Below, in pieces: positions 10,517 to 42,789 of a stretch of DNA of 50,310 bases. The position numbers and the translations under genes are program-made. Position 1 is the stretch's first letter. Each line of letters opens with the position of its first letter. The stretch is from a virus (taxonomy: Duplodnaviria; Caudoviricetes), in IMG/VR virus record IMGVR_UViG_3300024331_000001, positions 1 through 50,310 of that record. One strand, given 5' to 3'. The notes under the pieces were generated by a model. It was not told the origin of the DNA. It searched no databases and saw only the letters and a list, made by a program, of their open reading frames with translations.

Positions 10517-10823
10517 TTACTTCCAAGAAAAGGGTCTCATAGTCGTTGAGACCCAACGCGGATTGATGAGTGCGTACGTAATTGGCAACGTTTGTATGGT
10601 GGACAATTTCTACGTCAAACCAGAGTATCGTGGAACAGGTTCAGCTCTTCAATTGACGCTTCAGCTTATCCAACGAGCAAAAGATCGAAACTGTAACACA
10701 TTCTGCGCTGAAATCTACAAGAGTGATCCTATGTACGATTATATCTTAAGGCTTCACAAGCATTTTGGTATGAGCGTAACAGAAGACAATGAGCACAAAA
10801 CTGTAACCTATAAGGAAATCTAA
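10497..10823 (+). CDS. GNAT-family acetyltransferase
   Basis: FYVKPEYRGTGSA resembles the acetyl-CoA-binding motif A (V.P..RG.G). Confidence 0.7.
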   Translation: MQSMWADYFQEKGLIVVETQRGLMSAYVIGNVCMVDNFYVKPEYRGTGSALQLTLQLIQRAKDRNCNTFCAEIYKSDPMYDYILRLHKHFGMSVTEDNEHKTVTYKEI

Positions 10824-10824
10824 C

Positions 10825-11097
10825 ATGCTTGATCCTAAAACACTGCTGCCGATGATTAAAAAACTCCTGCCTAATGAGTCTGATGCGGACATCATGGCAG
10901 GTATCAAAGAATTTGAAAAGGCGCATCCTGATTTAGGAAATAAAGAAGCTCTTCAAGCTCTCATCACCGCGTTGAAGCAAATGCAGAGTGGCGGTCAACA
11001 GGGACAACCTCAGCCGCCCCAGCAGCAAGTTCCAGCAGCGCCAAGTAAGCCGTTTGGTCAGAGTATGCTAGGTAGTCTTCCAACAGGAGCAAAATAA
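10825..11097 (+). CDS. Hypothetical protein
   Basis: 90 aa, coupled to neighbours, Gln/Pro-rich tail. Confidence 0.65.
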   Translation: MLDPKTLLPMIKKLLPNESDADIMAGIKEFEKAHPDLGNKEALQALITALKQMQSGGQQGQPQPPQQQVPAAPSKPFGQSMLGSLPTGAK

Positions 11098-12374
11098 TGG
11101 GATTTTTAGATAGCATCACCGGCTCAGCCGATAATTCAGCTCAAGAGTATTTGAAACAAGCTCTTGCAGCTTATAACAATGTAAACGTTCCGACCGTTGC
11201 GTCTGAACAGGTTAACGAGTTGCCCATGCAGACGGTGCAGGGTACTGTTAATCCTCAAAACATAGCGGTGGCAGAACAGGCTCCGTCTGAGTACAACAAC
11301 ATCTCTCTTGATCCTACCACGCGAGCAGCTCAGATGTCCGCGTTACAGTCATATATGGACATAGCTAATTCTGGCGGATTGGACGCAGAGTCTAAGTTGG
11401 CCATCCAGCAAGCGATAGATGCCGCAAACAACCAATCTAGAGGTGATCAAGGCGCTATCATGAACGCTGCCCAGGCAATGGGTCAAGGCGGCGGTGATTT
11501 TGCCTTAACACAACGCGCTATCGCGTCTCAAGGAGCTTCTAACAACGCAGCTAATCAGGGAATGCAAGCGGCAGCGATGGCTGAAGCCAATAGAGAAGCA
11601 GCTCTTAACGCCATGGCGAATATCGGTGGCGGTATCAACGCAGCTGATTATAATCAAGCGGCAGCAAAAGCAGCGTCACAGAATACAATCAATGCTACCA
11701 ATACTGGAGCTAGGAACGCAGCTAACACAGGCAATGTAGCCAACCAGATACAGACAGGTGAGTTTAACGTAGGTAACGCTCAGAACGTAAATGCAGCTAA
11801 CACGGCGGCTGGTCAGAACAAGGTGTATTACAATGCTGGGTTGCCGCAGCAAAAGTTTAACAATGAGCTCGCAAAAGCATCTGGCGTGGCTGGCGTCAGC
11901 AACAACCAGGCTACCGCAGCTCAGAACGCTACGAACGCCAACAACGCCTTTACTGGTTCTTTACTTGGTACCGCCGGTACAGTAGCAGCTACAGCTTTAG
12001 GTGGTCCGGCTGCTGGAGTGATGGCGAACCAAACGTTGAAACCAAAACCAGTTATGGTGAGCAACAACGCCTCCGCAGGAGTTAACGCAGCTCACGGTGG
12101 ATACATGTGCTACGCCGACGGCGGAGTGACGCATGACCACGGCATCTGTATGAAATTAGGTGGACATGTTGGAGGCGAAGCTGAAGTACCTGGAGATAGT
12201 GAGCAGAACGACACAATCCCAGCCATGCTTAGTCCCGGAGAGCTCGTGATTCCGCGCTCTGTGCCGAAAGATGGACGACATATGGAAGAATTTGCTCGAA
12301 ACGCTCCAGTACATGGTACTGACAAGAAAGTAGACCTCACTGGCTTTACCAGTGGGTACAAAAGGAGTCGCTAA
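11097..12374 (+). CDS. Putative ejection (pilot-like) protein
   Basis: Ala/Asn/Gln-rich; C-terminal GG-rich segment ending DTIPAMLSPGELVIP resembles a module I recall from virion/tape-measure proteins. Confidence 0.6.
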   Translation: MGFLDSITGSADNSAQEYLKQALAAYNNVNVPTVASEQVNELPMQTVQGTVNPQNIAVAEQAPSEYNNISLDPTTRAAQMSALQSYMDIANSGGLDAESKLAIQQAIDAANNQSRGDQGAIMNAAQAMGQGGGDFALTQRAIASQGASNNAANQGMQAAAMAEANREAALNAMANIGGGINAADYNQAAAKAASQNTINATNTGARNAANTGNVANQIQTGEFNVGNAQNVNAANTAAGQNKVYYNAGLPQQKFNNELAKASGVAGVSNNQATAAQNATNANNAFTGSLLGTAGTVAATALGGPAAGVMANQTLKPKPVMVSNNASAGVNAAHGGYMCYADGGVTHDHGICMKLGGHVGGEAEVPGDSEQNDTIPAMLSPGELVIPRSVPKDGRHMEEFARNAPVHGTDKKVDLTGFTSGYKRSR

Positions 12375-12375
12375 C

Positions 12376-14058
12376 ATGCCTCTTTCCCACGGAAAATCAA
12401 AAGAAGCTATCAGCAAGAACATCAAGACAGAGGTTGAAGCTGGCAAACCGCAGGATCAAGCGGTGGCCATTGCTCTCAACACGGCTCGAGAAGCTGGAGC
12501 TCATATCCCCAAACCAAAGATGGCCGAAGGTGGGAAGGTGGAACGTACGTCCTTAGAACATCAAGAACCGAATGCCATGATGGCGCGCGCTATGGCTGAT
12601 GGCGGCGTTTGGCTTCAAAATGAAACTCCTGAGACAGTGAAAAAGGCTACGCACGTCGAAGGCGCACAGCCGACTGAAACGACTACCACTGGAGACGGCA
12701 CAAACGAAGGCATCGCTCGAATGGATAAAGGTGGCTATCCTCACGTCACGTTTTTAGAAAATGTCAGCACGCCTGAAATGAAGAAAACGGTTCATCTAGA
12801 AGACCCTTCCGGTGCTCATGAAGGCCATATAACTAAGGGCCATGAGGAAAACTACGCCAAAGGCGGAACCATCCACAAGGCTGAAGATCGGAACAAAGAA
12901 CCTTCCAAACCAGCAGATATCAACATGTCTCACGAGGCAAAATTGGCTGAGATTTATAAAGCGATGGGCATCCAGAAGTACGCGGACGGTGGGATTACGC
13001 CACAGGCAGCGCCTGCTGACCCCCTGGGGATGCCCCCGCAAAGCGATCCTACGTACTGGGATCAGATAAAGGCCGCCCTAGCCCAGGTAGCTAGCCCCGT
13101 GACCAAACCGATAGGAGCCATCAATGATGTGGTCGCAGGCGCTGCTAAAGCGGCCGCTCCAGCTGCTCCCGCTGTCGTTTCTGCGCTCAATAACCTGACT
13201 GGGGCATCCTTGCCCGTTCCGGCCGCTCCAGCTCCTCAAACGTCAGATTTGGCCGCTTCTGCGCCAGCTCCTGTCGCGCCTCCGGTCTTGCCGCCTGCGG
13301 CCCCAGCCCATCCCCCGGTGGCTGCCGCCCCGGCCACTGATGGTACGGCGAGCACTTTGAAGAATCTTTTCAATCAGGACACGTCTAAGCTAACCGAGGG
13401 AGTCAATCCTGAAGATAGACAAGCTTTAGCTAGCAAAATGGAAGGCTCACAACGCGGTATTGGCTCCATCGTGGCCGAAGCTGTGGCTGGTCTTGGAGAC
13501 GCCCTGGCTGCAAAAGGCGGAAGAGAGCAACATTCATTAAAGGATATCTTTTCAATGCAAAAACAGCAACGAGATGAGGCGTTAGCCAATTTCGATGCAG
13601 CGAGACAGCAGCGTTTGCAAAAACTGGACCTGCAAACCAAGATGGGGAATAACTTTATCAATCAACTGGCGGCTCAAGATGCCTATGGCATTGATGAACA
13701 TCTCAACAAACAACTTGGCGCTCCTCCGGGCACTGCGCATAAAGACCTTCCGTTATATATGCAGATGATGACAGCCCAGGTGGCACAGCAAGAAAAAGAT
13801 GCCGATCTCTACATGAAAGCCCATGCACAGGCGGCCAACGATGTGGACTCAGCTATCAAAAATGCTAGTGTTTTCAACATAAAACCAAGCCCTGCGCAGA
13901 TTCAAGCGAGCGGAGCAAAGCTGGCCGATCAGTATTATCACAAGGCTAAAGGCAGCATACTTTTCCAGCCGTCAGACGGACAGAAACCTGTCTGGATTCC
14001 GGCGGCGAACATTCAAAAAGCGAAACAGATGGACCCGCACGGACAAATCGTTCAATAA
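12376..14058 (+). CDS. Putative ejection/internal virion protein with repeated [M/Y]xxGG motifs
   Basis: ATG 12376 with AAGGAG RBS; N-terminus MPLSHGKSKEAISKNI...QAVAIAL resembles a small phage domain; five GG motifs and a Pro/Ala linker. Confidence 0.6.
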   Translation: MPLSHGKSKEAISKNIKTEVEAGKPQDQAVAIALNTAREAGAHIPKPKMAEGGKVERTSLEHQEPNAMMARAMADGGVWLQNETPETVKKATHVEGAQPTETTTTGDGTNEGIARMDKGGYPHVTFLENVSTPEMKKTVHLEDPSGAHEGHITKGHEENYAKGGTIHKAEDRNKEPSKPADINMSHEAKLAEIYKAMGIQKYADGGITPQAAPADPLGMPPQSDPTYWDQIKAALAQVASPVTKPIGAINDVVAGAAKAAAPAAPAVVSALNNLTGASLPVPAAPAPQTSDLAASAPAPVAPPVLPPAAPAHPPVAAAPATDGTASTLKNLFNQDTSKLTEGVNPEDRQALASKMEGSQRGIGSIVAEAVAGLGDALAAKGGREQHSLKDIFSMQKQQRDEALANFDAARQQRLQKLDLQTKMGNNFINQLAAQDAYGIDEHLNKQLGAPPGTAHKDLPLYMQMMTAQVAQQEKDADLYMKAHAQAANDVDSAIKNASVFNIKPSPAQIQASGAKLADQYYHKAKGSILFQPSDGQKPVWIPAANIQKAKQMDPHGQIVQ

Positions 14059-14070
14059 AGGAACTCAAAC

Positions 14071-15957
14071 ATGGCCATGGATTTTACAGCGTTACAAGGT
14101 GTTCCATCGGAAACAGGTCATCTAGACTTCTCTGCTATCGGTGGCGTTCCTGCCGTGGGTGGTGGACCGTCTGCGGAAGATGAAACATCTGCTCTTGGAG
14201 CGGCAGGACGCGGAGCTGTTGGGGTGCTTCCTCTTGGCAAACAAGCATACGCCGCTGTTGCTGGCGCCGCAGAGAACAAGCCGTATCTGCAAGAACGCCA
14301 AGAATTAGAGAAAGAGATTGAAGCAGATATCGCCAATCATCCAGCTGCAAGACTGGGTGGACAAGTGGCTGGTGTTGTGGCTCCAGCCTTGCTTACCGGC
14401 GGTGCAAGCACGCTTGGTGGTACTATTGCCGAAGGCGCCGCGATGGGCGCAGGATTTGGAGCAGGAAACGCTATTGATACGCTTGCTAGTGGGGGAAGTG
14501 GAGCGAAGGCGGCAGGAGATGTTGCATTAGGAACACTTGCTGGCGGAGCGGGTGGAGCAGCGGGAAGAGCGGCAGGAAATCTTATCGGTAAAGCTGCTAG
14601 CCCATTTGTTAACTCACAGGATGAGCTGATGGCCGAAGCTACAGCTGGTATCTTAGGTGGCACAACGCGGCAGATTCGTTCTCTACCGGGCAAGAATCCG
14701 GTGCAAACCTTGACTAAGTTAGGCTCCGATATGGCTAAGTATCATGTTAATGGTGAACCTCTGATCCAAGTTACAGATCAAATGCCGGCGCGCTTGGATA
14801 AGTTCATAGCACTCCAGAAACAGGCCGGTCAAACCATCGGTGATACGATTAAGAGCTCCAATGTTGAACCTATAGCGGCAAAACCTATCATCGATGAGCT
14901 TGGGACAGCCCTTAAGTTTGCTACGCCAGACGATCAGGTGCAAATGCAGGCTGTCATGAATCAAATCAATCAATATGCAGAAAAAGACGGTACTATCCCA
15001 TTTGACCGACTTCAACAGCTGAAGGGTGAATTGGGCGACAGAGCGTTTCATGGTCAAGGCGATCCAGTCCTTCAAGCCGCCTATCATACTGTCAGCGATG
15101 TCCAAGATCGTGAATTAGAGAAGGTTTCATCGGTTATCAATAAACCTGCGTTTGACGACGCTAAGAACGCTTATCAAATGACATCTAGAGCAATTCCTAT
15201 GCTCCGCATGGCTGTTTCTAAAGAAGTAGGCGGTAAGACTAACATGGTAGTGCCAGGAGCTGCGTTGCTTAGCGGGCATCCGCTGGTTGCAGCTGGAGCG
15301 TTGGCTAAGAACCGTCTTTCTCAAATGGGAAGCGGCGCGATGTTTAAAGGCCTACAGAACATACCAGAAAACGCTGGAGCTATAGCTGAAGCGCTACCAG
15401 GTAAAGCTGGCGCCCAAGCAGGCGGAGCCGCTGTACAACAGAATATGGGTGAAACGCATCCGGTGCCAGGAAAAGGTGCTCCGTCTCCGAGCGACACTCA
15501 GCCAAACAAGTTGAATATCGATCATCCTGCTCTAGCACAATGGAAACCTATGTTTCAACAGAACGCTCAGAATGCTAAGAATCCTGGAGAAGTAGAGAAA
15601 TCTCATGCGGTGACAGACTTTATCCTTAGTCAGCGTGATCCTGGCTACGCGGCCGCGAAAAAGAAAGCATCTGAAGCGCCGGTGACAGAGAATCAACCTG
15701 CGAAGATGTCAGAAGGTGGTATTATAGCAGACTTAAAAGAGAACTTTGGAAAGCCGGTGCCTGGGTTCGGCAGTACGCTTCAAGGATTGGAAAACGTAAT
15801 GAAAGGCGCTAAAAGTACGCCTGTTCCCATGGAAAACCAGTTACCTGTTCAGACAGAGAAGACGCCGAAGTTTCACGAACCATTTAATACCGACTTTGCC
15901 GATCAACTGAAGGCATTTCTAGCAGATAAGGAGAAAGACGATGCCGAGTCTAGATAA
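14071..15957 (+). CDS. Putative large ejection protein
   Basis: 628 aa with Gly/Ala-rich hydrophobic segments; last gene of the internal virion cluster. Confidence 0.6.
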   Translation: MAMDFTALQGVPSETGHLDFSAIGGVPAVGGGPSAEDETSALGAAGRGAVGVLPLGKQAYAAVAGAAENKPYLQERQELEKEIEADIANHPAARLGGQVAGVVAPALLTGGASTLGGTIAEGAAMGAGFGAGNAIDTLASGGSGAKAAGDVALGTLAGGAGGAAGRAAGNLIGKAASPFVNSQDELMAEATAGILGGTTRQIRSLPGKNPVQTLTKLGSDMAKYHVNGEPLIQVTDQMPARLDKFIALQKQAGQTIGDTIKSSNVEPIAAKPIIDELGTALKFATPDDQVQMQAVMNQINQYAEKDGTIPFDRLQQLKGELGDRAFHGQGDPVLQAAYHTVSDVQDRELEKVSSVINKPAFDDAKNAYQMTSRAIPMLRMAVSKEVGGKTNMVVPGAALLSGHPLVAAGALAKNRLSQMGSGAMFKGLQNIPENAGAIAEALPGKAGAQAGGAAVQQNMGETHPVPGKGAPSPSDTQPNKLNIDHPALAQWKPMFQQNAQNAKNPGEVEKSHAVTDFILSQRDPGYAAAKKKASEAPVTENQPAKMSEGGIIADLKENFGKPVPGFGSTLQGLENVMKGAKSTPVPMENQLPVQTEKTPKFHEPFNTDFADQLKAFLADKEKDDAESR

Positions 15958-16147
15958 ACGCCTTACAAAGCTGGAAGACGCGATAGTCACGCATCTAACG
16001 GAATCTGGAGAAATCCGTGGGGCTATTACAACGCTCACGAGTCAAGTAAATAAGATTTCTGATAGAATGTGGTACGCACTATGGATGCTAGCAATAGGCG
16101 CGTTAGGGATCGTGGGATTTTTGTTGAAGGTGACACTGTGGAAATAG
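15941..16147 (+). CDS. Small coiled-coil plus C-terminal TM protein (holin-like candidate)
   Basis: 68 aa; hydrophobic WYALWMLAIGALGIVGFLL; upstream of the putative lysin. Confidence 0.5.
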   Translation: MPSLDKRLTKLEDAIVTHLTESGEIRGAITTLTSQVNKISDRMWYALWMLAIGALGIVGFLLKVTLWK

Positions 16148-16157
16148 GAGGTTCGGT

Positions 16158-16403
16158 ATGGAAGCGGAATCGATGGTCTGTCCTGGCTGTGGCTTTAGGA
16201 TTGAACCTATTTACATCTTCGATCGCAGCCCAAAGACCGGAAAACCCTATCTTATCGTACGCTGTCCACGCGAGCGATGCAGCTTCAACATCGACATTGA
16301 AGACTACACCGGACCCCGAAAAAAACGTGCTGAGGATAAGCCGCAGAAGTCTAAAGACATCGGCGGGGATGGAGGAAAGTCGGGTTGGCGTTTTGGCCTA
16401 TGA
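16158..16403 (+). CDS. Zinc-ribbon protein
   Basis: GGAGG RBS and ATG; CPGC...CPRERC. Confidence 0.6.
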   Translation: MEAESMVCPGCGFRIEPIYIFDRSPKTGKPYLIVRCPRERCSFNIDIEDYTGPRKKRAEDKPQKSKDIGGDGGKSGWRFGL

Positions 16404-16698
16404 GGGTAAGTTCTTAGCCTATACTCTCGAGCACGAGAGCGTTAAAATCCCACCAGGTCGTTATGCAGGCGAGCTACGATGGAGTAAGCGCTTTGGAGAG
16501 ACAGTTGTATACATTCATGTTCCGAAGCGGTCTGGAATAGAAATCCACCGTGGAAACTGTCCGGCTGACTCAGGAGGATGCGTGTTGGTGGGTACAGCAG
16601 TAGATGGTGCTTGCCTTGACAACAGTAGACAGGCACTTGAGCGTACGGTGAAGACATTACCACAGACGTTTACCGTGGTAGTAACTGAGCAAAATTGA
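16327..16698 (+). CDS. DUF5675-like protein (candidate endolysin, L,D-transpeptidase-like His/Cys)
   Basis: LRISRR...GVLAYEGKFLAYTLE...IPPGRY...IEIHRGN...GGCVLVG pattern; start uncertain (GTG 16327 chosen, frame open from 16069). Confidence 0.65.
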   Translation: MLRISRRSLKTSAGMEESRVGVLAYEGKFLAYTLEHESVKIPPGRYAGELRWSKRFGETVVYIHVPKRSGIEIHRGNCPADSGGCVLVGTAVDGACLDNSRQALERTVKTLPQTFTVVVTEQN

Positions 16699-16771
16699 TA
16701 ACAGCGTAGAAGCAAAACGCCACAGCTAGCCCGTAGAGAAACAAGATAATCAGTATAGTTCTAAGTTGCAT
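16670..16771 (-). CDS. Small single-pass membrane peptide (33 aa)
   Basis: MQLRTILIILFLYGLAVAFCFYAVINFAQLLPR with GGAGG RBS; below the ORF-track cutoff. Confidence 0.5.
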   Translation of the reverse strand: MQLRTILIILFLYGLAVAFCFYAVINFAQLLPR

Positions 16772-16866
16772 TTCTTCCTCCGATGTTCCCGCCAGATATC
16801 TACCACAAAGCACGAGAGTATCCTACCTACGAACGTTCCTAAGATAACCGCCAGAAATGTCGTCAC
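16750..16866 (-). CDS. Small single-pass membrane peptide (38 aa)
   Basis: GTG overlapping the upstream stop; MTTFLAVILGTFVGRILSCFVVDIWREHRRKK. Confidence 0.45.
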   Translation of the reverse strand: MTTFLAVILGTFVGRILSCFVVDIWREHRRKKCNLELY

Positions 16867-17972
16867 TTTATCAACCCTTCCTGCCTAGCCAACCCACAAC
16901 ATATCACAAAGTCCAATCCTGAGTGCCAAATATAGGCTTCAGTCACCCCGTCCCATTCCTTGTAGCTAAACATATTGCGCTGCCACATGAATTCCTGCGA
17001 TCCGCGGTTTTCCATGGGTAGCGTTTCTTTTGCCCGTACGTGACCGCCCCAGTTGACGGTTTCTATTGGGCCAGGATCGGGCGGTTGAACTACGCCTCTC
17101 GTTCTATTTTGGTAGGTAAACGTGTGCAGCATCGAAAGATTGACCTCATGCGGTCCGAGAGCAGGCGCACAAAGCACCTCAACCCAGGCATTGTTGGACT
17201 TTCGCATGATACGATGAATGCGTCGAAGCCCTTTCGCATAAATTTCTTGTCCTGTCACTTTATAGAGAATATGCAGATGAATGGCGGCCCGATGAGTATC
17301 GTAATCGGTATCCCACCACAATAGTTTCACTTTTGGGTAAGCAAGAAGGAGCTTATACTTAGCAAAAAGCTCGAAATATGGCGCGTCTAATGCCGGATCG
17401 TTCAGCCTTCCTACCGCGAGAATGGCTAAAAGCAGCGTAATCCTCAACGGGTCTGCTTTCCAACCCTGTTCTAGCGCTCCAAATTCTGTGGGCGTGCCTT
17501 TAAGATCAGTCAACGCGTAACCAGAAGCACAAATTTGCCTCGCCCAACGTGCCGCCAGGTCTGTCTGTTTACTAGCCCAAAGGCCAAAGATAACGCCCGT
17601 AGCAGCATCGTTTGACGCTGTGTCGTTTATTGTTCCATCGGCCTGTATTCCGCGTATGAGGATATTGTTGATGAATAACCTCTCGAGCTGAGCTTCAGCG
17701 GCAGCGGTATCCGCGTATCTGAAGGCTAGCATAGCCAGATAAAGACCCTGGAAAAGAGCAAAATCACCAGAGTCTTTTGGCATAGGAAGCTGGTACATGA
17801 ACTGGCCATCTACGACGTGAGTAGTCTGCAGATGCCAAAATAGCTGGGTTTCAAGATTGACAAGATCAGCAGTTACAATCGGAAGCTGAGCCTGTTTGAA
17901 AGGATCATAACACTTGTTGACTAAATCGCACAGCCAAATGGCTGCTACCTTGATAACGTTAATGAACCACAT
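16863..17972 (-). CDS. Hypothetical helical protein (about 369 aa)
   Basis: Long ORF; ATG 17972 with GGAGG RBS; Trp/Asp/His-rich; family not recognised. Confidence 0.75.
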   Translation of the reverse strand: MWFINVIKVAAIWLCDLVNKCYDPFKQAQLPIVTADLVNLETQLFWHLQTTHVVDGQFMYQLPMPKDSGDFALFQGLYLAMLAFRYADTAAAEAQLERLFINNILIRGIQADGTINDTASNDAATGVIFGLWASKQTDLAARWARQICASGYALTDLKGTPTEFGALEQGWKADPLRITLLLAILAVGRLNDPALDAPYFELFAKYKLLLAYPKVKLLWWDTDYDTHRAAIHLHILYKVTGQEIYAKGLRRIHRIMRKSNNAWVEVLCAPALGPHEVNLSMLHTFTYQNRTRGVVQPPDPGPIETVNWGGHVRAKETLPMENRGSQEFMWQRNMFSYKEWDGVTEAYIWHSGLDFVICCGLARQEGLIK

Positions 17973-18150
17973 GTTTGTCCTCCCCGCAATCGGCCAGCCC
18001 AAAACGATACATGCTCTGAAGAGTCAGTTCAAACTGCTTACTGCGCTTATATCGGGCCACCCCGTCTTCCGCGCCTTTCTGATAGACGTACCAAAACAGT
18101 GGAAACAGGATGGTCGCTGTTAAAAGTGCTGCTACGATATATCGTTTCAT
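17959..18150 (-). CDS. Small N-terminally membrane-anchored protein
   Basis: 63 aa, MKRYIVAALLTATILFPLFWY. Confidence 0.6.
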   Translation of the reverse strand: MKRYIVAALLTATILFPLFWYVYQKGAEDGVARYKRSKQFELTLQSMYRFGLADCGEDKHVVH

Positions 18151-18298
18151 TCGTCTTCTCCCTGATCGCCTAGTATCATTGCTACGAGTCCGAAGCCGAT
18201 AACAAGCCCTCCTATAAAAGCTACTGTCAAAAACGCACAGTGAACGGCCATCTCTGCGACTTGTAAAAGCACCGTCGTGTCAATTTGAGTTATTTCCA
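18147..18298 (-). CDS. Small membrane protein
   Basis: MEITQIDT start with GAGGAG RBS; hydrophobic AFLTVAFIGGLVIGFGLVAMIL. Confidence 0.55.
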
Positions 18299-19033
18299 TA
18301 GGCTCCTCGTGTCTGAGAAGATAGTGTATAGCATCAAAGTCGTCAAAAGAATGGCTCCTATCATGTTCCAAGTCGCGTAAGTTTGGGGCTTGAACTTTTT
18401 TCCGCGGATTCCTTCGATTGCGTAAAGAAATACGTGACCACCGTCAAGCGCTGGAATGGGGAATAAATTGAAAAGCCCCAGGCTCAACGAAATGATCGAT
18501 AGAACAGACCCAAATCGAACGAATCCTTCTTTAAACGAATCGGCTAGAATCTTAACGATCATCACAGGGCCAGAAACAGCCGCATCTGGTACCGTAGACT
18601 GACCTCCAAGGAATTTAAGAGATTCTACGATAACCGCCCGGCATAATTCCCACGCCTTGGCAGCCCCGGCCAAAACCGGCCAATGTCGTCCGAAAATCAA
18701 GAGACCCAGCATGATGAGATAGCCTAAAAGAAGGCTAGCGACCGGTCCAGCCAGAGCAACCAACGATCGTTTCCACCAAACCAATGAGAAAAACCCACGC
18801 TTGACCTTGGACATTGGGTCTTCGCCATCACACTGAACAAATCCACCTAGTGGCAGCAGTCGAAGCTCATAGGAGGTATCCCCGATGGTTTTCTTGAGCA
18901 GAACAGGTCCAAACCCGATGGCGAACTTGTTAACCTTTACCCCGAATAGCTTAGAAACCAGCATGTGGGACGCTTCGTGAAATCCAATGAGTGCTCCAAA
19001 ACCTAACATAATTGCTAGAGCAGCTAGAATCAT
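18290..19033 (-). CDS. Site-2 protease (M50/RseP-like intramembrane zinc metalloprotease), no PDZ domain
   Basis: HEASH zinc motif, FAIGFGP and LRLLPLGGFV loops, AGP, NLFPIPALDGG. Confidence 0.92.
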   Translation of the reverse strand: MILAALAIMLGFGALIGFHEASHMLVSKLFGVKVNKFAIGFGPVLLKKTIGDTSYELRLLPLGGFVQCDGEDPMSKVKRGFFSLVWWKRSLVALAGPVASLLLGYLIMLGLLIFGRHWPVLAGAAKAWELCRAVIVESLKFLGGQSTVPDAAVSGPVMIVKILADSFKEGFVRFGSVLSIISLSLGLFNLFPIPALDGGHVFLYAIEGIRGKKFKPQTYATWNMIGAILLTTLMLYTIFSDTRSLWK

Positions 19034-19210
19034 TTTATCTCCTTTAAGACTTCTACAGGCGCTGGCGTTACCACTGTCTGCGCTGCTTCAGCTTTCTGTT
19101 TCGCTCTCGCGGCCTTCTTCCTCGCAACTTCGCGTTTTATATCTGTGTCTGAACGTCCCCAGTAATACTCTCGCGTTAGAATGTAGGCGATATAGGCTTC
19201 TCTAGCCATT
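19030..19210 (-). CDS. Hypothetical basic protein
   Basis: MAREAYIAY...; coupled to the S2P gene; start approximate. Confidence 0.45.
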
Positions 19211-19222
19211 TGTGCCAATCCA

Positions 19223-19420
19223 TTATTTTTCCTCGGGCTGCGGCAGCAACATTCTAATTCCAGCCCGCACTCCTGTGATTTTGGCGTGCAAAGGACTGTA
19301 GAATACTTCATCAGCTGAGTGCAGGGTAGCATTCATTTTAGCCATGTGCTCGAAATACTTTTGGCAGTCTTCTAGTATAGCATCTATTTTCTGAAACTCT
19401 CTTTGAAGGTTTTTTGTCAT
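19223..19420 (-). CDS. Hypothetical protein
   Basis: 65 aa, ATGA overlap with the upstream gene. Confidence 0.6.
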   Translation of the reverse strand: MTKNLQREFQKIDAILEDCQKYFEHMAKMNATLHSADEVFYSPLHAKITGVRAGIRMLLPQPEEK

Positions 19421-19848
19421 TTAATAGTCACCCAATAGTCTGAATGTTTATAGCCTGGAATTACTCCTTCAAAAAGCTCGCCCCAGTCGGCAGAGCTTAC
19501 AATTTCATCACGAAGGTGCGGCCATTTTTCAACCGCTTTCTTATAGCGCCAGGCGTACGCTTTTTGTTGCAATTTTACTACAGCACGATTAAGCAGCCCA
19601 AATAAGAACGTGTTAGCAAGCCAGAAGTCCAGCCGCATCGGCCACCATTTGGGGTACCAGGCATAGTTAGGCCGCCAGATTGAGTATATCCCGTACCAAC
19701 CAAAACTACAGTAGACGCGAACGGTTCCAAACTTTTCTTTGATGCAGCTGACATTCACCCTGGGGTATTTTATAAGCCAACCCCCTATGAATTCAGCCGC
19801 ATCGTTAATTCCCTGCCAGTCTACGTTTTCGTCTCCCCAAGAGTGCAT
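19417..19848 (-). CDS. Hypothetical phage protein
   Basis: 143 aa, IKEKFGTVR motif, GGAG RBS. Confidence 0.7.
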   Translation of the reverse strand: MHSWGDENVDWQGINDAAEFIGGWLIKYPRVNVSCIKEKFGTVRVYCSFGWYGIYSIWRPNYAWYPKWWPMRLDFWLANTFLFGLLNRAVVKLQQKAYAWRYKKAVEKWPHLRDEIVSSADWGELFEGVIPGYKHSDYWVTIK

Positions 19849-19849
19849 A

Positions 19850-20572
19850 TTATTCTCCCGTTAACTCATATACGACGCTGGGCTTCTTCTTTGCGGCTTC
19901 AACCAGAAACTTCTGAAGTTTCTCTGTAGGTATCCCACCGGCTATGGCCGAACTTCCGTCTTCCCATCCCACGTCAGTCATGGCTACGATTTCACCCTTT
20001 GAATTAGCCCATGGTCCACCAGAGTTGCCTCCCCGGATCATTGCATCGCTTAAAACCCACCGATCGTGCTCACCGCTGATGATGCCGTAGCTTGCGAACC
20101 AGAGCATGTACCCGCGAATGTTCCCAACAGATACAATAGGTTCACCTAGAATCGCCGTTTTGGCAAAAACAGGCGCTCTATGGCCCGACACTGGAGTATT
20201 TAGCTCCAGAATGGCGATATCCTGCGGCTGGTTGATGAATTTCAGCTTTCCATGGACGACTTTATCTCCAGGATAGACGTAAATCCACAGCGTATCAGCC
20301 CTTTTGCTCTCAGGAATAACATGGGCACAAGTCATCACCGTGGTCGAACTGAGCAGGATACCGGTTCCCCGCCACCGGTCATTCATGCTCTCGTTCGAAA
20401 TAAGAACAGTGTATTCTTGCACCATTTTGACTGTATCGCTAGTGATTGGAGACGGGCCATAGCGAGCATCTGGTACCTTAGCTTTTGGCTTAGGCATGGA
20501 ATAGGTTAGCAACACTAGGGCCAAGGTGGCTCCAATGCTGATACCCATGACTGCGTATACAAGCTTTTTCAT
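19850..20572 (-). CDS. Membrane-anchored trypsin-like serine protease (HtrA/DegS-like), no PDZ domain
   Basis: N-terminal TM helix; catalytic triad motifs TCAHV, DIAIL, GNSGGP. Confidence 0.9.
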   Translation of the reverse strand: MKKLVYAVMGISIGATLALVLLTYSMPKPKAKVPDARYGPSPITSDTVKMVQEYTVLISNESMNDRWRGTGILLSSTTVMTCAHVIPESKRADTLWIYVYPGDKVVHGKLKFINQPQDIAILELNTPVSGHRAPVFAKTAILGEPIVSVGNIRGYMLWFASYGIISGEHDRWVLSDAMIRGGNSGGPWANSKGEIVAMTDVGWEDGSSAIAGGIPTEKLQKFLVEAAKKKPSVVYELTGE

Positions 20573-20796
20573 TTATCGTCTCCTTTGGGTGGTTTGATCT
20601 TTCCTTGCTTCAAGCCTTGATGGATTATATGTTCTACGCGTTCCTTATACTCTTCTACAATGATGTCTGCCTTACGGTACTCGGCTAGTAAACGCTTCAT
20701 GTCATCTTTGGTTTTGGGGTTCTTCGTCTTGGCCCATTCCATGAAGGCTATATACTGGTCGAGCGTTAGGACGTCTATACGCGTGAAGTTTTTCAC
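20569..20796 (-). CDS. Hypothetical protein
   Basis: Probable GTG start overlapping the upstream stop (VKNFTRID...). Confidence 0.5.
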   Translation of the reverse strand: MKNFTRIDVLTLDQYIAFMEWAKTKNPKTKDDMKRLLAEYRKADIIVEEYKERVEHIIHQGLKQGKIKPPKGDDK

Positions 20797-21512
20797 GGAC
20801 GAATCTCCACCCCGGTCTTCCGATAAGCCTTGTGAGACCAGCCTCCGCAGCCACCCTTTTCTTTGCGGCATTCATAGCGTTTGGATTTGTTGACAGCGCC
20901 ATAAATCCAACCACGTTGATTGAGGGTGCCTTTCTTTTCACAGAGAGGGCATTGGTCAGGCTCATTGTTGATGCTAGCCAGATTAGGATGCTTAAACCCA
21001 AAGACCCGCATTTTGAGATAGACTTCTGCGGTTAGTTTAACATCGTGAATATTGTGAGTAACAATCTTGCGGATGGCTTTCTCGTTGCCGCCACCAGCTA
21101 GAAGCCAGTCATTCATGTCTGTCTCAGTTTTCTTAACCTTACATCCCAGGAATTTACCAAGTCCTTCCAGTGAGTTTTTGACTCGCATCTTCTTGAATGA
21201 AACCTCACAGGTGTCGTAGTGCGGGATGTTAGGCAACGGAGCGTAACCCCAATGCAACAACCTACTGTTAAGCCATGGAATATCAAACCATTTCCCATTG
21301 TGAGTCACGATCATGTCGAATTCCAGAAGCTTTTTGCGAATAGCCAAGACGAGCTTCTTATCGTCTAATGGGTTAATCTTGATATTATCCCGAACAAGGA
21401 TATCTACCTTAGATTTACCCAGCTCCATGATACCCGAACAAATCATGAAGCCTTGATCGGCTTTAAATCTAAACGTGTGGCACTCGATATCCCAGATTCC
21501 AATTTTAGCCAT
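20793..21512 (-). CDS. RNase H-fold (DEDD) 3'-5' exonuclease with C-terminal zinc ribbon
   Basis: WDIE, HNGKWFD, HNIHDV motifs; CPLC...YEC. Confidence 0.8.
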   Translation of the reverse strand: MAKIGIWDIECHTFRFKADQGFMICSGIMELGKSKVDILVRDNIKINPLDDKKLVLAIRKKLLEFDMIVTHNGKWFDIPWLNSRLLHWGYAPLPNIPHYDTCEVSFKKMRVKNSLEGLGKFLGCKVKKTETDMNDWLLAGGGNEKAIRKIVTHNIHDVKLTAEVYLKMRVFGFKHPNLASINNEPDQCPLCEKKGTLNQRGWIYGAVNKSKRYECRKEKGGCGGWSHKAYRKTGVEIRP

Positions 21513-21679
21513 TAGTTGCGCTCCTTTTGACTTTCTTCCACCATAACTTCAGACAATACTCGTGCACCTATTACCATGTCCGTTAATATCTCTACACACT
21601 TCCAGAATCCTACCTGTATATACATCTGCCGCATTTCGAACTTCAGTTGAGCTATGTCTAATTCCGATCGTTTACTCAT
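21512..21679 (-). CDS. Hypothetical protein
   Basis: MSKRSELD start overlapping the Fic stop. Confidence 0.5.
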   Translation of the reverse strand: MSKRSELDIAQLKFEMRQMYIQVGFWKCVEILTDMVIGARVLSEVMVEESQKERN

Positions 21680-22152
21680 TGGAACCACCCATAGTACTCC
21701 CATCTGTCTAACCAAGTAATGTTTGCTGGAGGAAGCCCGATCTTATGGCGCTGCCAGTTCATCACCATACGCCCTACTCTTCCGTTTCCATCGGCGAAAG
21801 GATGGACACGCTCAAACTCTATGTGAGCTTGACGCACACTTTCTTCTGTGTCCGCCAGCGCCCACACGCTGAACCAGTTTAAGATTAACCCTGGCACTTG
21901 CTGCCAATTAGGACAAACTCTGCCTCCGACCCAGACGTCTACATTGCGCAAAGCACCGATCCACTCAGGATGATAATCTCCGTATATCTTGCGACCAGCC
22001 ATTATTTCACCGTGAAGCGCTAGGACATTTTTAAGAGTCAATGATCTACGTAGGAAGCGTCTGTAAGCTTTTGTACAGACTGCGTCGGCTTCCCGTTCAT
22101 TTACAGATTCTATGAGATTAGACTCTCGAATCCATTGTGGAACTTGTGTCAT
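21676..22152 (-). CDS. Fic-domain protein (AMPylase-like)
   Basis: Complete HPFADGNGRVGR signature. Confidence 0.9.
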   Translation of the reverse strand: MTQVPQWIRESNLIESVNEREADAVCTKAYRRFLRRSLTLKNVLALHGEIMAGRKIYGDYHPEWIGALRNVDVWVGGRVCPNWQQVPGLILNWFSVWALADTEESVRQAHIEFERVHPFADGNGRVGRMVMNWQRHKIGLPPANITWLDRWEYYGWFQ

Positions 22153-22418
22153 TTCTCCCACCACTTTTTACCCCAAGACGGAAACGCCCAAAAGCCCATA
22201 AACCAGACTTCGCATCCGCCTTTGTAGAACTCAAGGTATAGTACCATCAGCTTTCCAATGCGAAACTCAACGATGGGTGTTTCCTTGCTTCCACGCATAT
22301 CGTCGCGCCATCCATACTCCCAGCCACAGGCCCAATCATCCATACACGTAAGACTAATGTCTAACGTACCGTTTTTCTCGACTCGATAGAGCGTGAAAGG
22401 ACCAAGTTTGAAGATCAT
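22149..22418 (-). CDS. Hypothetical Trp-rich protein
   Basis: 89 aa, GGAGG RBS, coupled. Confidence 0.6.
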   Translation of the reverse strand: MIFKLGPFTLYRVEKNGTLDISLTCMDDWACGWEYGWRDDMRGSKETPIVEFRIGKLMVLYLEFYKGGCEVWFMGFWAFPSWGKKWWEK

Positions 22419-22672: not shown

Positions 22673-22905
22673 TTGAACAACACGTAGGTCGAGTTTAGCG
22701 TTTCGATGACTGAAAAATCAGCAGACTTTGAGACTTTCTGCACCACCGACAAATTACAGCAGTCGAATGGCCTTCCGACTCTCCTAAACAAAAACCCCTG
22801 TCCCTTTTTAGGAGCGCGCATATACTCAATCGCGACAGGTGCCATACCAAATACAGGCGCGTTTCTAGACTTGATGAAAAGTAGTGTTCCTTTAGACAGT
22901 TGCAT
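22669..22905 (-). CDS. Hypothetical protein
   Basis: 78 aa, GGAGG RBS. Confidence 0.55.
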   Translation of the reverse strand: MQLSKGTLLFIKSRNAPVFGMAPVAIEYMRAPKKGQGFLFRRVGRPFDCCNLSVVQKVSKSADFSVIETLNSTYVLFK

Positions 22906-23191
22906 TGCGTTCTACCTCCAGGTATTTGAGCAATTTTAGGGCCGATTCCAACGTATGGCGCCCAACTATGAACTTGTTGCAGCGGTAGCAAAGAAGCCCA
23001 CGAACCTGGCCCGTCTTATGGTTGTGGTCTACTGATAACCGCATTTTAAACGATGATTCTGGCTTCTCACACACTCCACACTTCCCACCCTGCTTGACTG
23101 AGAGCTTTTCCCGCTCAGCTTCGGCCAGGGGCTCGGTCAAGTGAGGCCAATACTTCCGCATCCCGTACAACTTGATTTTCTTCTTACTCAT
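22892..23191 (-). CDS. Endonuclease VII-domain protein
   Basis: QGGKCGVC...LSVDHNHKTGQVRGLLCYRCN. Confidence 0.85.
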   Translation of the reverse strand: MSKKKIKLYGMRKYWPHLTEPLAEAEREKLSVKQGGKCGVCEKPESSFKMRLSVDHNHKTGQVRGLLCYRCNKFIVGRHTLESALKLLKYLEVERNATV

Positions 23192-23414
23192 TAGGATGAT
23201 CCATGCAAAACACAACGTATCGCTGCCAGGCCATTTCCATGCCAAGAGTGAACCTTGGCCCGCTATCATGCCGGCATCCAGGCAGCGTTATCACATATCT
23301 ACGACTAGCGTTTCGCATGGCTCGCCCAAACTCTTCGATGATAAGCTCCAGCTCAGCGTTCTCCCGCTGTTGCTTGAGCGTGCTACACTTTAGCAGCGTT
23401 CCAGTTTTTGCCAT
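23184..23414 (-). CDS. Hypothetical protein
   Basis: 76 aa, GGAGG RBS, fills the gap between pol and EndoVII. Confidence 0.5.
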   Translation of the reverse strand: MAKTGTLLKCSTLKQQRENAELELIIEEFGRAMRNASRRYVITLPGCRHDSGPRFTLGMEMAWQRYVVFCMDHPNE

Positions 23415-29212: not shown

Positions 29213-29415
29213 TAGGCGCCCAGTTTTGTTGGGATCGATCCACCGTTTTTCAAGCAGATTTCAACCAAACGCTGCTTCGCGGCCATCTTCGCCTTATTGA
29301 TCTGGCCAAGGGTTTCCAGCTTACGGTTGATCTGTCTAGCCGTTTTTCGTGATAGTCCTATGTAAAATTTAAGTTCTTTAACAGCCTGCTTCTTGGTGGA
29401 CATTGGTTTCTTCAT
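29212..29415 (-). CDS. Small basic hypothetical protein
   Basis: 67 aa, GGAGG RBS. Confidence 0.55.
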   Translation of the reverse strand: MKKPMSTKKQAVKELKFYIGLSRKTARQINRKLETLGQINKAKMAAKQRLVEICLKNGGSIPTKLGA

Positions 29416-29887
29416 GCGCGACCTCCTGATTATTCAGATAATTGGCCAAACCTATTAGCTTATCAACGTTATCTTGACACATTCCGAGCGCTCTATTACA
29501 GCCTTGACACAGCAAACCACGAAAACGCATGGTTTTATGATCGTGATCCATGTGAAGATTAGCGATTCGTCCGCAAGATTTATTGGCGCATCTACCCTCT
29601 TGAAGACAATGGACTGCGGTGTAATCCTGAGAAGTAAATTGCTTACCAAAAGTATTTAGAACGCCTTTCCACTCCTGTTTTCTGGCGCTTTCTTGTATTC
29701 TTGCTATATGTTTTTCACGGTATTGCTTCCAGTGTAGTGTGTGCCACCTTTTGTTAGCGGCGTTCATTTCTGCCCGGTGATTTTTAGCCCATTCTTTTGT
29801 TCGTTGTCTGCTGCATATTTTACAAGCTTTATATTTTGTTCTACCAACCGTCAAAGTATCATGACCTTGTGGGCAAAACCGTTTCAT
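29378..29887 (-). CDS. Second endonuclease VII-domain protein (homing-endonuclease-like)
   Basis: CPQGH/CKIC N-terminus; QEGRCA...MDHDHKTMRFRGLLCQGCNRALG. Confidence 0.8.
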   Translation of the reverse strand: MKRFCPQGHDTLTVGRTKYKACKICSRQRTKEWAKNHRAEMNAANKRWHTLHWKQYREKHIARIQESARKQEWKGVLNTFGKQFTSQDYTAVHCLQEGRCANKSCGRIANLHMDHDHKTMRFRGLLCQGCNRALGMCQDNVDKLIGLANYLNNQEVAHEETNVHQEAGC

Positions 29888-29948
29888 AGTTTGAACACCT
29901 TTGTCGCCGCCCACATTGCCGCGAGTACTAGACACAGCAGAATTTCAG

Positions 29949-42770: not shown

Positions 42771-42789
42771 ATTTTCCAAGGGAGACTAA

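What the first reader, a model, noticed from the sequence alone, without database searches (positions are those of the whole stretch)
16670..20572. Phage-encoded site-1/site-2 protease pair: a candidate regulated intramembrane proteolysis system without PDZ control
Seen: a TM-anchored trypsin-like protease (TCAHV/DIAIL/GNSGGP, 19850-20572) and an M50 protease (HEASH, NLFPIPALDGG, 18290-19033) lie about 800 bp apart in one co-directional run. Neither is long enough to hold a PDZ domain. At least four small single-pass membrane peptides lie downstream (18147, 17959, 16750, 16670). Established: DegS then RseP sequentially cleave the anti-sigma RseA to release sigmaE, and their PDZ domains gate that activity. 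Inference: the phage carries a constitutive two-step cascade. It could release a host ECF sigma, destroy membrane-bound defence sensors or receptors, or process its own TM peptides. I do not know of such a pair described in a phage of this size.
Basis: partly seen in the sequence, partly recalled or inferred. Interest (0 to 1): 0.85.

Follow-up and report, generated by a model that had tools for sequence, protein, structure and literature searches.

The report
Phage RseP-type protease without PDZ gate
An uncultured soil phage carries a membrane-anchored HtrA-like serine protease and, as a later add-on, a gate-less copy of the bacterial intramembrane protease RseP; related phages suggest the two work separately, not as a fixed two-step pair.

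Summary
Both genes are real. 19850-20572(-) is a Trypsin_2/HtrA-fold protease with an N-terminal membrane helix and an invariant His-Asp-Ser triad. 18290-19033(-) is an RseP-type M50 site-2 protease with the PDZ tandem cleanly excised. The window is a complete 50,310-bp soil phage with terminal repeats.

The cascade reading is weakly supported. The serine protease is a core gene of this ~50-kb phage group. 0 of 10 related viral records searched whole carry any M50 (0 of 6 that are at least 90% complete). The M50 lies in a hypervariable stretch at the operon end.

The M50 belongs to one clade of PDZ-less RseP proteins, placed in five viral records and in no close cellular genome. It also occurs in 69-180-kb viral records, 14-83 kb from a different, lipoprotein-type S1. 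0 of 5 further large records with that S1 have M50. In favour of a link, all 6 records with M50 that could be searched whole also hold one S1, and about 12 close-relative contigs seem to hold both.

In E. coli, damaged PDZ domains let RseP cut full-length RseA without DegS. An ungated phage RseP that needs no site-1 cut is therefore my preferred mechanism. Its substrate is unknown. I found no paper on a phage RseP.

The parts
19850..20572 (-). S1: membrane-anchored HtrA-fold serine protease without PDZ, 240 aa; a core gene of this phage group
   Evidence: Pfam Trypsin_2 E 1.8e-18. Triad H84/D118/S184 invariant in 26 relatives. Model pLDDT 85 with helix 2-24. Foldseek best matches are HtrA1, HtrA3, DegS-deltaPDZ and DegP, E about 1e-13. 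Syntenic orthologues in 11 related viral loci.
19417..19848 (-). p143: 143-aa protein of unknown function between the two proteases
   Evidence: No family hit over a cut-off. Homologues sit elsewhere in the genome in L102 and L105, E 1e-70 and 8e-65.
19223..19420 (-). p65: 65-aa protein of unknown function
   Evidence: A homologue directly follows S1 in L098, E 2.7e-36. No family hit.
19030..19209 (-). p59: 59-aa basic protein; its stop overlaps the M50 start (ATGA)
   Evidence: Start read from the sequence. Homologues of 57-80 aa lie upstream of S1 in L100, L104 and L105 and downstream in L098.
18290..19033 (-). M50: RseP-type site-2 intramembrane metalloprotease with the PDZ tandem excised, 247 aa; accessory gene
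   Evidence: Pfam Peptidase_M50 E 2.4e-49. TIGR00054 172.9 bits against 147.55. Profile 4-116 aligns to RseP 3-114 and 116-246 to RseP 298-428 of 9j82. Model pLDDT 91.7. TM-score by query 0.83-0.88 to RasP and RseP. Absent from 10 of 10 collinear relatives searched whole.
18147..18299 (-). tm50: 50-aa hydrophobic ORF overlapping the M50 stop; an orphan
   Evidence: ATG 18299 with GAGGAG upstream. Hydropathy segment 9-46. Matched only itself in the 5.8-billion-protein collection.
17959..18150 (-). tm63: conserved 63-aa single-pass membrane protein
   Evidence: Family alignment A3 of 8 sequences with 9 invariant positions. Directly follows S1 in L099, L100, L101 and L105. Lies near p379 in L021, L022 and L105.
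16863..17972 (-). p369 (listed as a 379-aa ORF from TTG 18002): conserved protein with a hydrophobic N-terminus, function unknown
   Evidence: ATG 17972 with GGGGAGGA upstream. Homologues in L098, L105, L106, L021 and L022. ESM Atlas gives mostly viral hypothetical clusters; the alpha/alpha-toroid family scores only 0.80, a lead.
16750..16866 (-). tm38: 38-aa hydrophobic ORF; its GTG start overlaps the p369 stop
   Evidence: Read from the sequence. Hydropathy segment 1-25, followed by 5 K/R. Conservation not tested.
16670..16771 (-). tm33: 33-aa hydrophobic ORF, last of the minus-strand operon
   Evidence: ATG 16771 with GGAGGA upstream. Conservation not tested. Similar tiny hydrophobic ORFs end the operon in relatives that lack M50.

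Best explanation
These are two separate membrane proteases with different histories, not an obligate site-1/site-2 pair.

(1) The 240-aa S1 is a core gene of an uncultured ~50-kb soil phage group. It is an HtrA-fold protease domain held at the inner membrane by one N-terminal helix. It stands at the distal end of the long replication/early operon.

(2) The 247-aa M50 was inserted later, with other small genes, into the hypervariable stretch between S1 and the convergent lysis-like genes. It belongs to one clade of RseP proteins, seen so far in phage or environmental contigs. This clade keeps the catalytic membrane core: the HExxH helix, the re-entrant beta-hairpin, the helices that follow the PDZ region in RseP, and the LDG helix. 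It has lost the periplasmic PDZ tandem, which in E. coli RseP keeps uncut substrates out.

Inferred mechanism: during infection the phage makes an ungated RseP. This enzyme cuts single-pass inner-membrane proteins or peptides inside the bilayer without needing a prior site-1 cut. The targets are most likely host proteins, such as anti-sigma factors or small membrane proteins.

Shown: family, fold, motifs, PDZ loss, distribution. Inferred: activity, lack of gating, host substrates.
For: Identity and PDZ loss:
- establish the family, motifs, alignment, model and fold matches.
- The PDB profile search splits the phage profile exactly around RseP residues 115-297.

S1 is core and M50 accessory:
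- 11 of 12 viral loci with S1 relatives are collinear with the window: polymerase, exonuclease, S1, then convergent DUF5675 and tail genes.
- The S1-to-convergent-gene gap varies from 251 nt to about 5 kb, with different small genes in each phage.
- 0 of 10 of these records searched whole have M50, and 0 of 6 that are at least 90% complete.

M50 travels alone:
- Across 26 M50 loci, no window gene other than tm63 and p379 (3 loci) recurs next to it.
- Its neighbours differ widely between loci.
- In the 69-180-kb records it is 14-83 kb from their S1.

One clade outside cells:
- 23 PDZ-less proteins, from five viral records and from environmental contigs, form one clade with SH-aLRT 100.
- There is no close relative among representatives of 185,579 species; the best PDZ-less hits are 31-37% identical.

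[quoted passage not shown] RseP also degrades small membrane proteins, including HokB (PMC10470546, abstract).
Against: - All 6 M50-bearing records that could be searched whole also carry one S1 gene. In the window's clade, 12 contig lengths are shared between the M50 and S1 hit lists. M50 may therefore only be kept in an S1 background.
- Both genes sit in one tightly packed co-directional run here; overlapping stops and starts were read from p59 to tm38, not between S1 and M50.
- No substrate is identified.
- Whether an RseP that has lost the whole PDZ tandem is active and ungated in this host is extrapolated from E. coli mutants.
- The host is unknown.
- Whole genomes of the other ~40-50-kb M50 phages (L021, L027/L028) could not be read. 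M50 without S1 has therefore not actually been observed.
Confidence: 0.6

Rival explanations
1. This is a true phage-encoded two-step cascade. The anchored S1 trims the extracytoplasmic part of a single-pass membrane protein, from host or phage. The M50 then cuts the remaining stub in the membrane.
For: - The two genes are 816 bp apart in the same operon.
- The pair seems retained across the window's clade, with 12 shared contig lengths.
- 6 of 6 M50 records searched whole have one S1, in two phage backgrounds with two different S1 subfamilies.
- The S1 has the HtrA/DegS fold and a membrane helix.
Against: - S1 occurs without M50 in 0/10 plus 0/5 related records.
- In the large records the two genes are 14-83 kb apart.
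- No S1 lies within the flanks of 26 M50 loci.
- PDZ loss removes the known need for site-1 trimming.
- The S1 scores 23 bits against the 423-bit DegS cut-off.
- 19 of 26 family members have more K/R after the helix than before it, so the catalytic domain may face the cytoplasm.
Confidence: 0.17
2. The M50 processes the phage's own small membrane proteins (tm63, tm50, tm38, tm33, or a holin/antiholin). This would time lysis or mature a membrane factor. Its target is phage-encoded rather than host-encoded.
For: - M50, tm50, tm63, p369 and tm38 have overlapping stops and starts; tm33 overlaps tm38 by 22 nt.
- The block abuts convergent lysis-like genes.
- RseP degrades small membrane proteins in E. 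coli (abstract).
- tm63 has a proline in its helix and co-occurs with M50 in L021, L022 and L027.
Against: - tm63 and similar tiny hydrophobic ORFs are present in relatives that lack M50.
- tm50 has no relatives at all.
- No small ORF is conserved next to M50 across 26 loci.
- tm38 has its positive charges after the helix, opposite to the N-in orientation of known RseP substrates. The orientation rule is recalled; the charges are.
Confidence: 0.13
3. The M50 is a membrane housekeeping helper. It clears remnant signal peptides or damaged membrane proteins while the phage overloads the envelope. In this it resembles other proteostasis genes seen beside it in other phages.
For: - A ClpP gene lies 0.3-1 kb downstream of M50 in L003 (also L005, L025 and L030 by reading).
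- An SPFH/Band 7 gene lies 1-2 kb downstream in L019 (also L020, L022 and L027 by reading).
- RseP removes remnant signal peptides (abstracts listed).
Against: - The host already has RseP, present in 14 of 14 control genomes.
- Loss of the PDZ gate is not needed for signal-peptide clearance.
- Those neighbours are absent from the window.
Confidence: 0.1

Closest known systems
RseP / RasP (group I site-2 proteases; E. coli RseP 7w6x, Aquifex aeolicus RseP 9j82, B. subtilis RasP 9a6w)
   Same: - HExxH and NxxPxxxLDG motifs, the re-entrant beta-hairpin, and four membrane helices plus the post-PDZ helices.
- Profile E 5.5e-60 to 9j82.
- TM-score by query 0.83-0.88.
- Passes the TIGR00054 cut-off.
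   Different: - The whole PDZ tandem is missing (RseP residues about 115-297 of 9j82).
- It is encoded by phages.
- It forms its own clade.
PDZ-less RseP orthologues at the cdsA-rseP-polC locus of some Clostridia MAGs (L110, L111, P0090)
   Same: Same length class (245-256 aa), M50 only, no PDZ. They are 35-37% identical to the window protein.
   Different: They sit in a cellular housekeeping locus between CDP-diglyceride synthase and PolC. They nest inside PDZ-bearing Clostridia RseP in the tree, which indicates a separate PDZ loss.
DegS / HtrA family (S1C), including DegS-deltaPDZ constructs
   Same: - Chymotrypsin fold with a His-Asp-Ser triad.
- N-terminal membrane helix, as in DegS.
- Best sequence and fold matches are HtrA1, HtrA3, DegS-deltaPDZ, DegP and DegQ.
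   Different: - No PDZ domain.
- Only 23-36 bits against cut-offs of 416-423.
- About 23-26% identity.
- Lys/Pro-rich linker after the helix, and uncertain orientation.
- No close cellular relatives and none in 50,697 deposited phage records.
Other M50 peptidases annotated in uncultured phages and giant viruses (BFVD: A0A6J5SMS1, A0A6J5RHB6, A0A5J6VKI8)
   Same: Viral proteins carrying an M50 annotation.
   Different: Only weak structural matches, with TM-score by query 0.30-0.52 and 15-17% identity. They are other M50 subfamilies, not RseP-type.

Membership tests
RseP-type site-2 protease (Peptidase M50, TIGR00054) | HExxH zinc motif in the first membrane helix | tested here: met
   H19, E20 and H23 are invariant in 24 sequences.
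RseP-type site-2 protease (Peptidase M50, TIGR00054) | NxxPxxxLDG motif carrying the third zinc ligand | tested here: met
   N189, P192, L196, D197 and G198 are invariant.
RseP-type site-2 protease (Peptidase M50, TIGR00054) | Membrane-re-entrant beta-hairpin after helix 1, and overall fold of the protease core | tested here: met
   Model strands at 34-50 and 53-68, pLDDT 91.7. TM-score by query 0.83-0.88 to RasP and RseP.
RseP-type site-2 protease (Peptidase M50, TIGR00054) | Score above the curated family cut-off | tested here: met
   TIGR00054 172.9 bits against 147.55. The E. coli-type model NF008046 gives 105.8 bits against 477, which is not met.
RseP-type site-2 protease (Peptidase M50, TIGR00054) | One or two periplasmic PDZ domains between helices 2 and 3 | tested here: not met
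   No PDZ family at E <= 0.1. The alignment skips RseP residues 115-297. The model has only a short loop there.
RseP-type site-2 protease (Peptidase M50, TIGR00054) | Intramembrane cleavage of a single-pass substrate | not testable with these tools
   Needs an expression and cleavage assay.
DegS / HtrA (S1C) protease | Chymotrypsin fold with a His-Asp-Ser triad | tested here: met
   Triad invariant. Fold matches with E about 1e-13 and TM-score by target 0.73-0.79.
DegS / HtrA (S1C) protease | C-terminal PDZ domain(s) | tested here: not met
   No PDZ hit. The model ends after the protease domain.
DegS / HtrA (S1C) protease | Score above the curated cut-offs (DegS TIGR02038, Do family TIGR02037) | tested here: not met
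   23.1 bits against 422.95, and 36.4 bits against 416.2.
DegS / HtrA (S1C) protease | N-in membrane anchor with the catalytic domain in the periplasm | tested here: inconclusive
   The helix is present. K/R after the helix exceed those before it in 19 of 26 relatives, mean 2.7 against 1.4. This is a crude charge count only.
DegS / HtrA (S1C) protease | Trimeric assembly | not tested
Two-step regulated intramembrane proteolysis system (site-1 plus site-2 protease on one substrate) | The two proteases co-occur across related genomes | tested here: inconclusive
   M50 given S1: 0 of 10 and 0 of 5 records. S1 given M50: 6 of 6 records, from two backgrounds.
Two-step regulated intramembrane proteolysis system (site-1 plus site-2 protease on one substrate) | A dedicated single-pass substrate (anti-sigma-like) encoded with them | tested here: not met
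   No conserved partner next to M50 in 26 loci. tm63 occurs without M50. tm50 is an orphan.
Two-step regulated intramembrane proteolysis system (site-1 plus site-2 protease on one substrate) | Sequential cleavage shown | not testable with these tools
   Needs biochemistry.

The most novel reading that the evidence does not exclude
A clade of RseP, seen so far only in phage and environmental contigs, lost its PDZ gate once and then spread among unrelated soil phages (~50-kb and up to ~180-kb genomes). On this reading it is a phage takeover tool. It would perform ungated intramembrane proteolysis of host single-pass membrane proteins. That could switch on or off envelope sigma-factor circuits, or destroy small membrane toxins and defence effectors. 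This would be the first case of a virus hijacking regulated intramembrane proteolysis with its own site-2 protease. In a bolder version the phage S1 proteases supply the first cut.
Probability: 0.35. Interest if true: 0.8.

Novelty: new variant of a known kind. Interest (0 to 1): 0.55.

Why it matters
RseP-type proteases control envelope stress, iron signalling and small-protein turnover in bacteria. Their PDZ domains are the accepted safety gate.

Here a long-lived and diversified lineage has dispensed with that gate (49-100% identity, at least 87 clusters); it was placed in viral records wherever the record could be classified. It is a natural experiment on that gate. It also gives a candidate way for phages to rewire or disarm the host inner membrane.

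The idea is directly testable in E. coli with existing RseA and sigma-E reporters. I found no paper on it in four full-text searches.

The specific claim that made the finding look exceptional, a fixed DegS/RseP-like pair, is not what the comparative data favour.

Tried and rejected
- Single-protein scans of viral contigs found no relatives of either protease. Alignment-based scans were needed.
- A DNA search of the region against deposited phages gave no match.
- A tblastn of the M50 against deposited phages returned 22 records. All listed matches either split around a PDZ-sized gap or cover part of the protein. Several lie in records that look like bacterial DNA, for example a 289-kb Salmonella contig annotated RseP. 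I did not count these as phage M50 genes.
- A tblastn of the S1 against the same collection gave no match.
- Whole-record searches of the metagenome contigs behind L018, L021, L027, L028 and L036 were not possible, because the records are not held. Whether those M50 phages have an S1 beyond the 8-10-kb flanks is therefore unknown.
- The look-up of encoding contigs was announced as closed and was not called. The Logan contigs of the closest relatives could not be read. The statement that the close clade holds both genes rests only on equal longest-contig lengths.
- PADLOC gave nothing for the M50. For the S1 it matched only protease domains of RT-Protease_XI and other defence proteins, which I read as generic Trypsin_2 similarity.
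- Sequencing runs: five soil metagenome runs hold the stretch, and no RNA holder is listed. Contigs of four of them laid on 16000-21600 were identical, with no joints. This gave no information on variants or expression.
- The idea that tm50 and M50 form a conserved two-gene cassette was rejected, because tm50 has no relatives.
- The longest DUF5675 ORF (16069-16698) has an N-terminal hydrophobic segment. This is probably not part of the protein. The Pfam match starts at residue 102. A conserved 81-aa ORF occupies the upstream part in another frame.
- Complex prediction was not used, because the report does not claim that any two of these proteins bind.
- Host assignment failed. There are no close cellular relatives of either protease. 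The polymerase is only about 31% identical to those of Pseudomonas and Rhizobium phages.

Full report
WHAT IS THERE

The window is an entire IMG/VR virus record of 50,310 bp with direct terminal repeats, rated 100% complete. The plus strand carries the terminase and portal (41289-44850) and a run of large plus-strand ORFs at 1-16698, most with no family match and read here as structural.

A long minus-strand operon runs from about 37850 down to 16670. It carries replication and nucleotide genes:
- prim-pol/helicase
- family A DNA polymerase
- RNase H-like exonuclease
- thymidylate synthase
- dUTPase
- two endonuclease VII genes
- a Fic-domain protein

Both proteases lie at the distal end of this operon.

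THE SERINE PROTEASE (19850-20572, 240 aa)

It matches Trypsin_2 at E 1.8e-18. Its best solved relatives by sequence are the protease domains of HtrA1, HtrA2, HtrA3 and DegS, with E from 8e-7 to 1e-4.

A model built on 26 relatives has pLDDT 85. It shows a helix at residues 2-24, a disordered linker at 30-37, and then a two-barrel chymotrypsin fold. Foldseek ranks HtrA1, HtrA3, DegS-deltaPDZ, DegP and DegQ first, with E about 1e-13 and TM-score by target 0.73-0.79. H84, D118 and S184 are invariant.

It is not a DegS orthologue. It scores 23 bits against the DegS cut-off of 423, and 36 bits against the Do-family cut-off of 416. Its orientation is open: 19 of 26 relatives have more Lys/Arg in the 15 residues after the helix than before it, mean 2.7 against 1.4. 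By the positive-inside rule (recalled) this does not favour a periplasmic domain. The count is crude.

THE M50 (18290-19033, 247 aa)

It matches Peptidase_M50 at E 2.4e-49. It passes the NCBIfam RseP equivalog TIGR00054, with 172.9 bits against 147.55.

A profile of 24 relatives hits Aquifex RseP (9j82) at E 5.5e-60, and E. coli RseP (7w6x) at 1.5e-45. The match comes in two pieces: profile 4-116 aligns to RseP 3-114, and profile 116-246 aligns to RseP 298-428. So the PDZ tandem is cleanly missing and everything else is kept.

The model has pLDDT 91.7, with the beta-hairpin at 34-68. It superposes on RasP and RseP with TM-score by query 0.83-0.88. HExxH and NxxPxxxLDG are invariant.

DISTRIBUTION OF THE M50

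- The protein collection holds about 87 clusters of PDZ-less proteins of 244-261 aa at 49-100% identity. After these there is a sharp drop to PDZ-bearing cellular RseP.
- In a quick maximum-likelihood tree of 59 rows, the 23 PDZ-less proteins of this family that I labelled 'phage' form one clade with SH-aLRT 100; only those that correspond to the five IMG/VR records are on records classed as viral. Rows used: those 23, 4 cellular PDZ-less and 32 PDZ-bearing. The remaining hits were left out.
- A small group of cellular PDZ-less proteins nests inside PDZ-bearing Clostridia RseP, so it lost PDZ separately. Those cellular ones sit between cdsA and polC, a housekeeping position.
- No close relative of the phage clade was found among representatives of 185,579 species. 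The best PDZ-less hits are 31-37% identical.
- Five IMG/VR records of 69-180 kb carry it. So do many soil and peat metagenome contigs.
- Its neighbours differ from locus to locus. No window gene other than tm63 and p379 (3 loci) recurs beside it in 26 loci. Several of these loci are the same contig held in two collections.

IS IT A PAIR?

Evidence against:
- Twelve IMG/VR loci encode S1 relatives at 27-56% identity. Eleven are collinear with the window, from the polymerase through S1 to the convergent DUF5675 and tail genes.
- None of the 12 loci has an M50 hit in its flanks. Of the 10 records searched whole, 0 have any Peptidase_M50. This includes 0 of 6 that are at least 90% complete.
- In L099, L100, L101 and L105 the S1 is followed directly by the tm63 homologue. 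The window therefore carries a 1.7-kb insertion there (p143, p65, p59, M50, tm50).
- The S1-to-convergent-gene interval ranges from 251 nt to about 5 kb, with different small genes, many of them hydrophobic.
- An HMM of the S1 family finds 0 hits at E <= 1 among 2188 ORFs of the 26 M50 loci. The positive control found 12 of 12.
- The five large M50 records each have one Trypsin_2 gene. It is a lipoprotein-type S1, 25-27% identical to the window's, and lies 14-83 kb from the M50.
- Of five further large records with that S1 type, 0 have M50. One of these is a complete 192-kb genome.

Evidence for:
- All 6 M50 records that could be searched whole have an S1.
- Twelve longest-contig lengths are shared between the M50 and S1 hit lists: 50324, 7168, 21306, 10932, 11827, 52877, 44057, 21886, 17566, 16382, 6059 and 4614. 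This suggests the pair stays together in the window's clade. It is an inference, because those contigs could not be read.

MECHANISM

[quoted passage not shown] RseP also degrades small membrane proteins, including the toxin HokB (PMC10470546; abstract and outline seen).

A PDZ-less RseP is therefore expected to act without a site-1 cut. Together with the distribution, this makes a stand-alone, ungated intramembrane protease acting on host membrane proteins the best reading. My confidence that the two proteases are not an obligate pair is about 0.6. The substrate is not known.

THE SMALL MEMBRANE ORFS

- tm63 is a real, conserved family. It occurs with S1 in phages that lack M50, and beside p379 in others.
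- tm50 overlaps the M50 stop, but matched only itself in 5.8 billion proteins.
- tm38 and tm33 have good ribosome-binding sites. Their conservation was not tested.
- Comparable tiny hydrophobic ORFs end the operon in M50-free relatives.

These ORFs are therefore weak evidence for M50 substrates.

NOVELTY

Four full-text searches found no paper on a phage-encoded site-2 or M50 protease or a phage HtrA-like anchored protease. BFVD holds a few viral proteins annotated as M50. They match the model only weakly, with TM-score by query at most 0.52 and 15-17% identity.

VERDICT

The PDZ-less RseP in a phage is a new variant of a known kind and worth an experiment. The site-1/site-2 pairing is possible but not favoured.

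Noticed in passing
window 21676-22164 (-): A 162-aa Fic/DOC-domain protein sits in the same early operon. It matches Pfam Fic at E 8.9e-15 and the PADLOC SoFic model at E 2.3e-15. It may be a host-modifying enzyme.
   Followed up: partly
window 16069-16698 (+), 16158-16403 (+), 15941-16147 (+): A convergent block faces the protease operon. It holds a DUF5675 domain (E 5.1e-20) that starts only at residue 102 of the longest ORF, a conserved 81-aa Cys-rich ORF in another frame, and a 68-aa ORF with a C-terminal hydrophobic segment. All three are conserved in relatives. By position it may be a lysis cassette; this was not tested.
   Followed up: partly
window 16863-17972 (-); L098, L105, L106, L021, L022: p369/p379 is a conserved protein of a mostly viral family with a hydrophobic N-terminus. 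It is often next to tm63. Its ESM Atlas structural neighbours are in Acidobacteriota and Hydrogenedentota. An alpha/alpha-toroid family appears only as a weak lead, score 0.80.
   Followed up: partly
L003:9066-9728, L019:5931-6791: In other phages the PDZ-less M50 lies near a ClpP protease gene (E 1e-26) or an SPFH/Band 7 gene (E 1.7e-35). This hints at a membrane-proteostasis gene set in the large phages.
   Followed up: partly
L110:7989-8759, L111:7989-8726: Some Clostridia MAGs have a PDZ-less RseP orthologue at the housekeeping cdsA-rseP-polC position. Gate-less RseP therefore also exists in cells.
   Followed up: partly
L098-L108, downstream of the S1 gene: The end of the early operon is a hot spot for small accessory genes. 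The interval from S1 to the convergent gene varies from 251 nt to about 5 kb. It often ends in 31-61-aa hydrophobic ORFs.
   Followed up: partly
window 1043-1117 (+): A single tRNA-Met (CAT) gene lies near the left end of the genome.
   Followed up: no
window 22892-23269 (-) and 29378-29935 (-): There are two endonuclease VII-domain genes in one 50-kb genome. Homologues are scattered in related loci.
   Followed up: no
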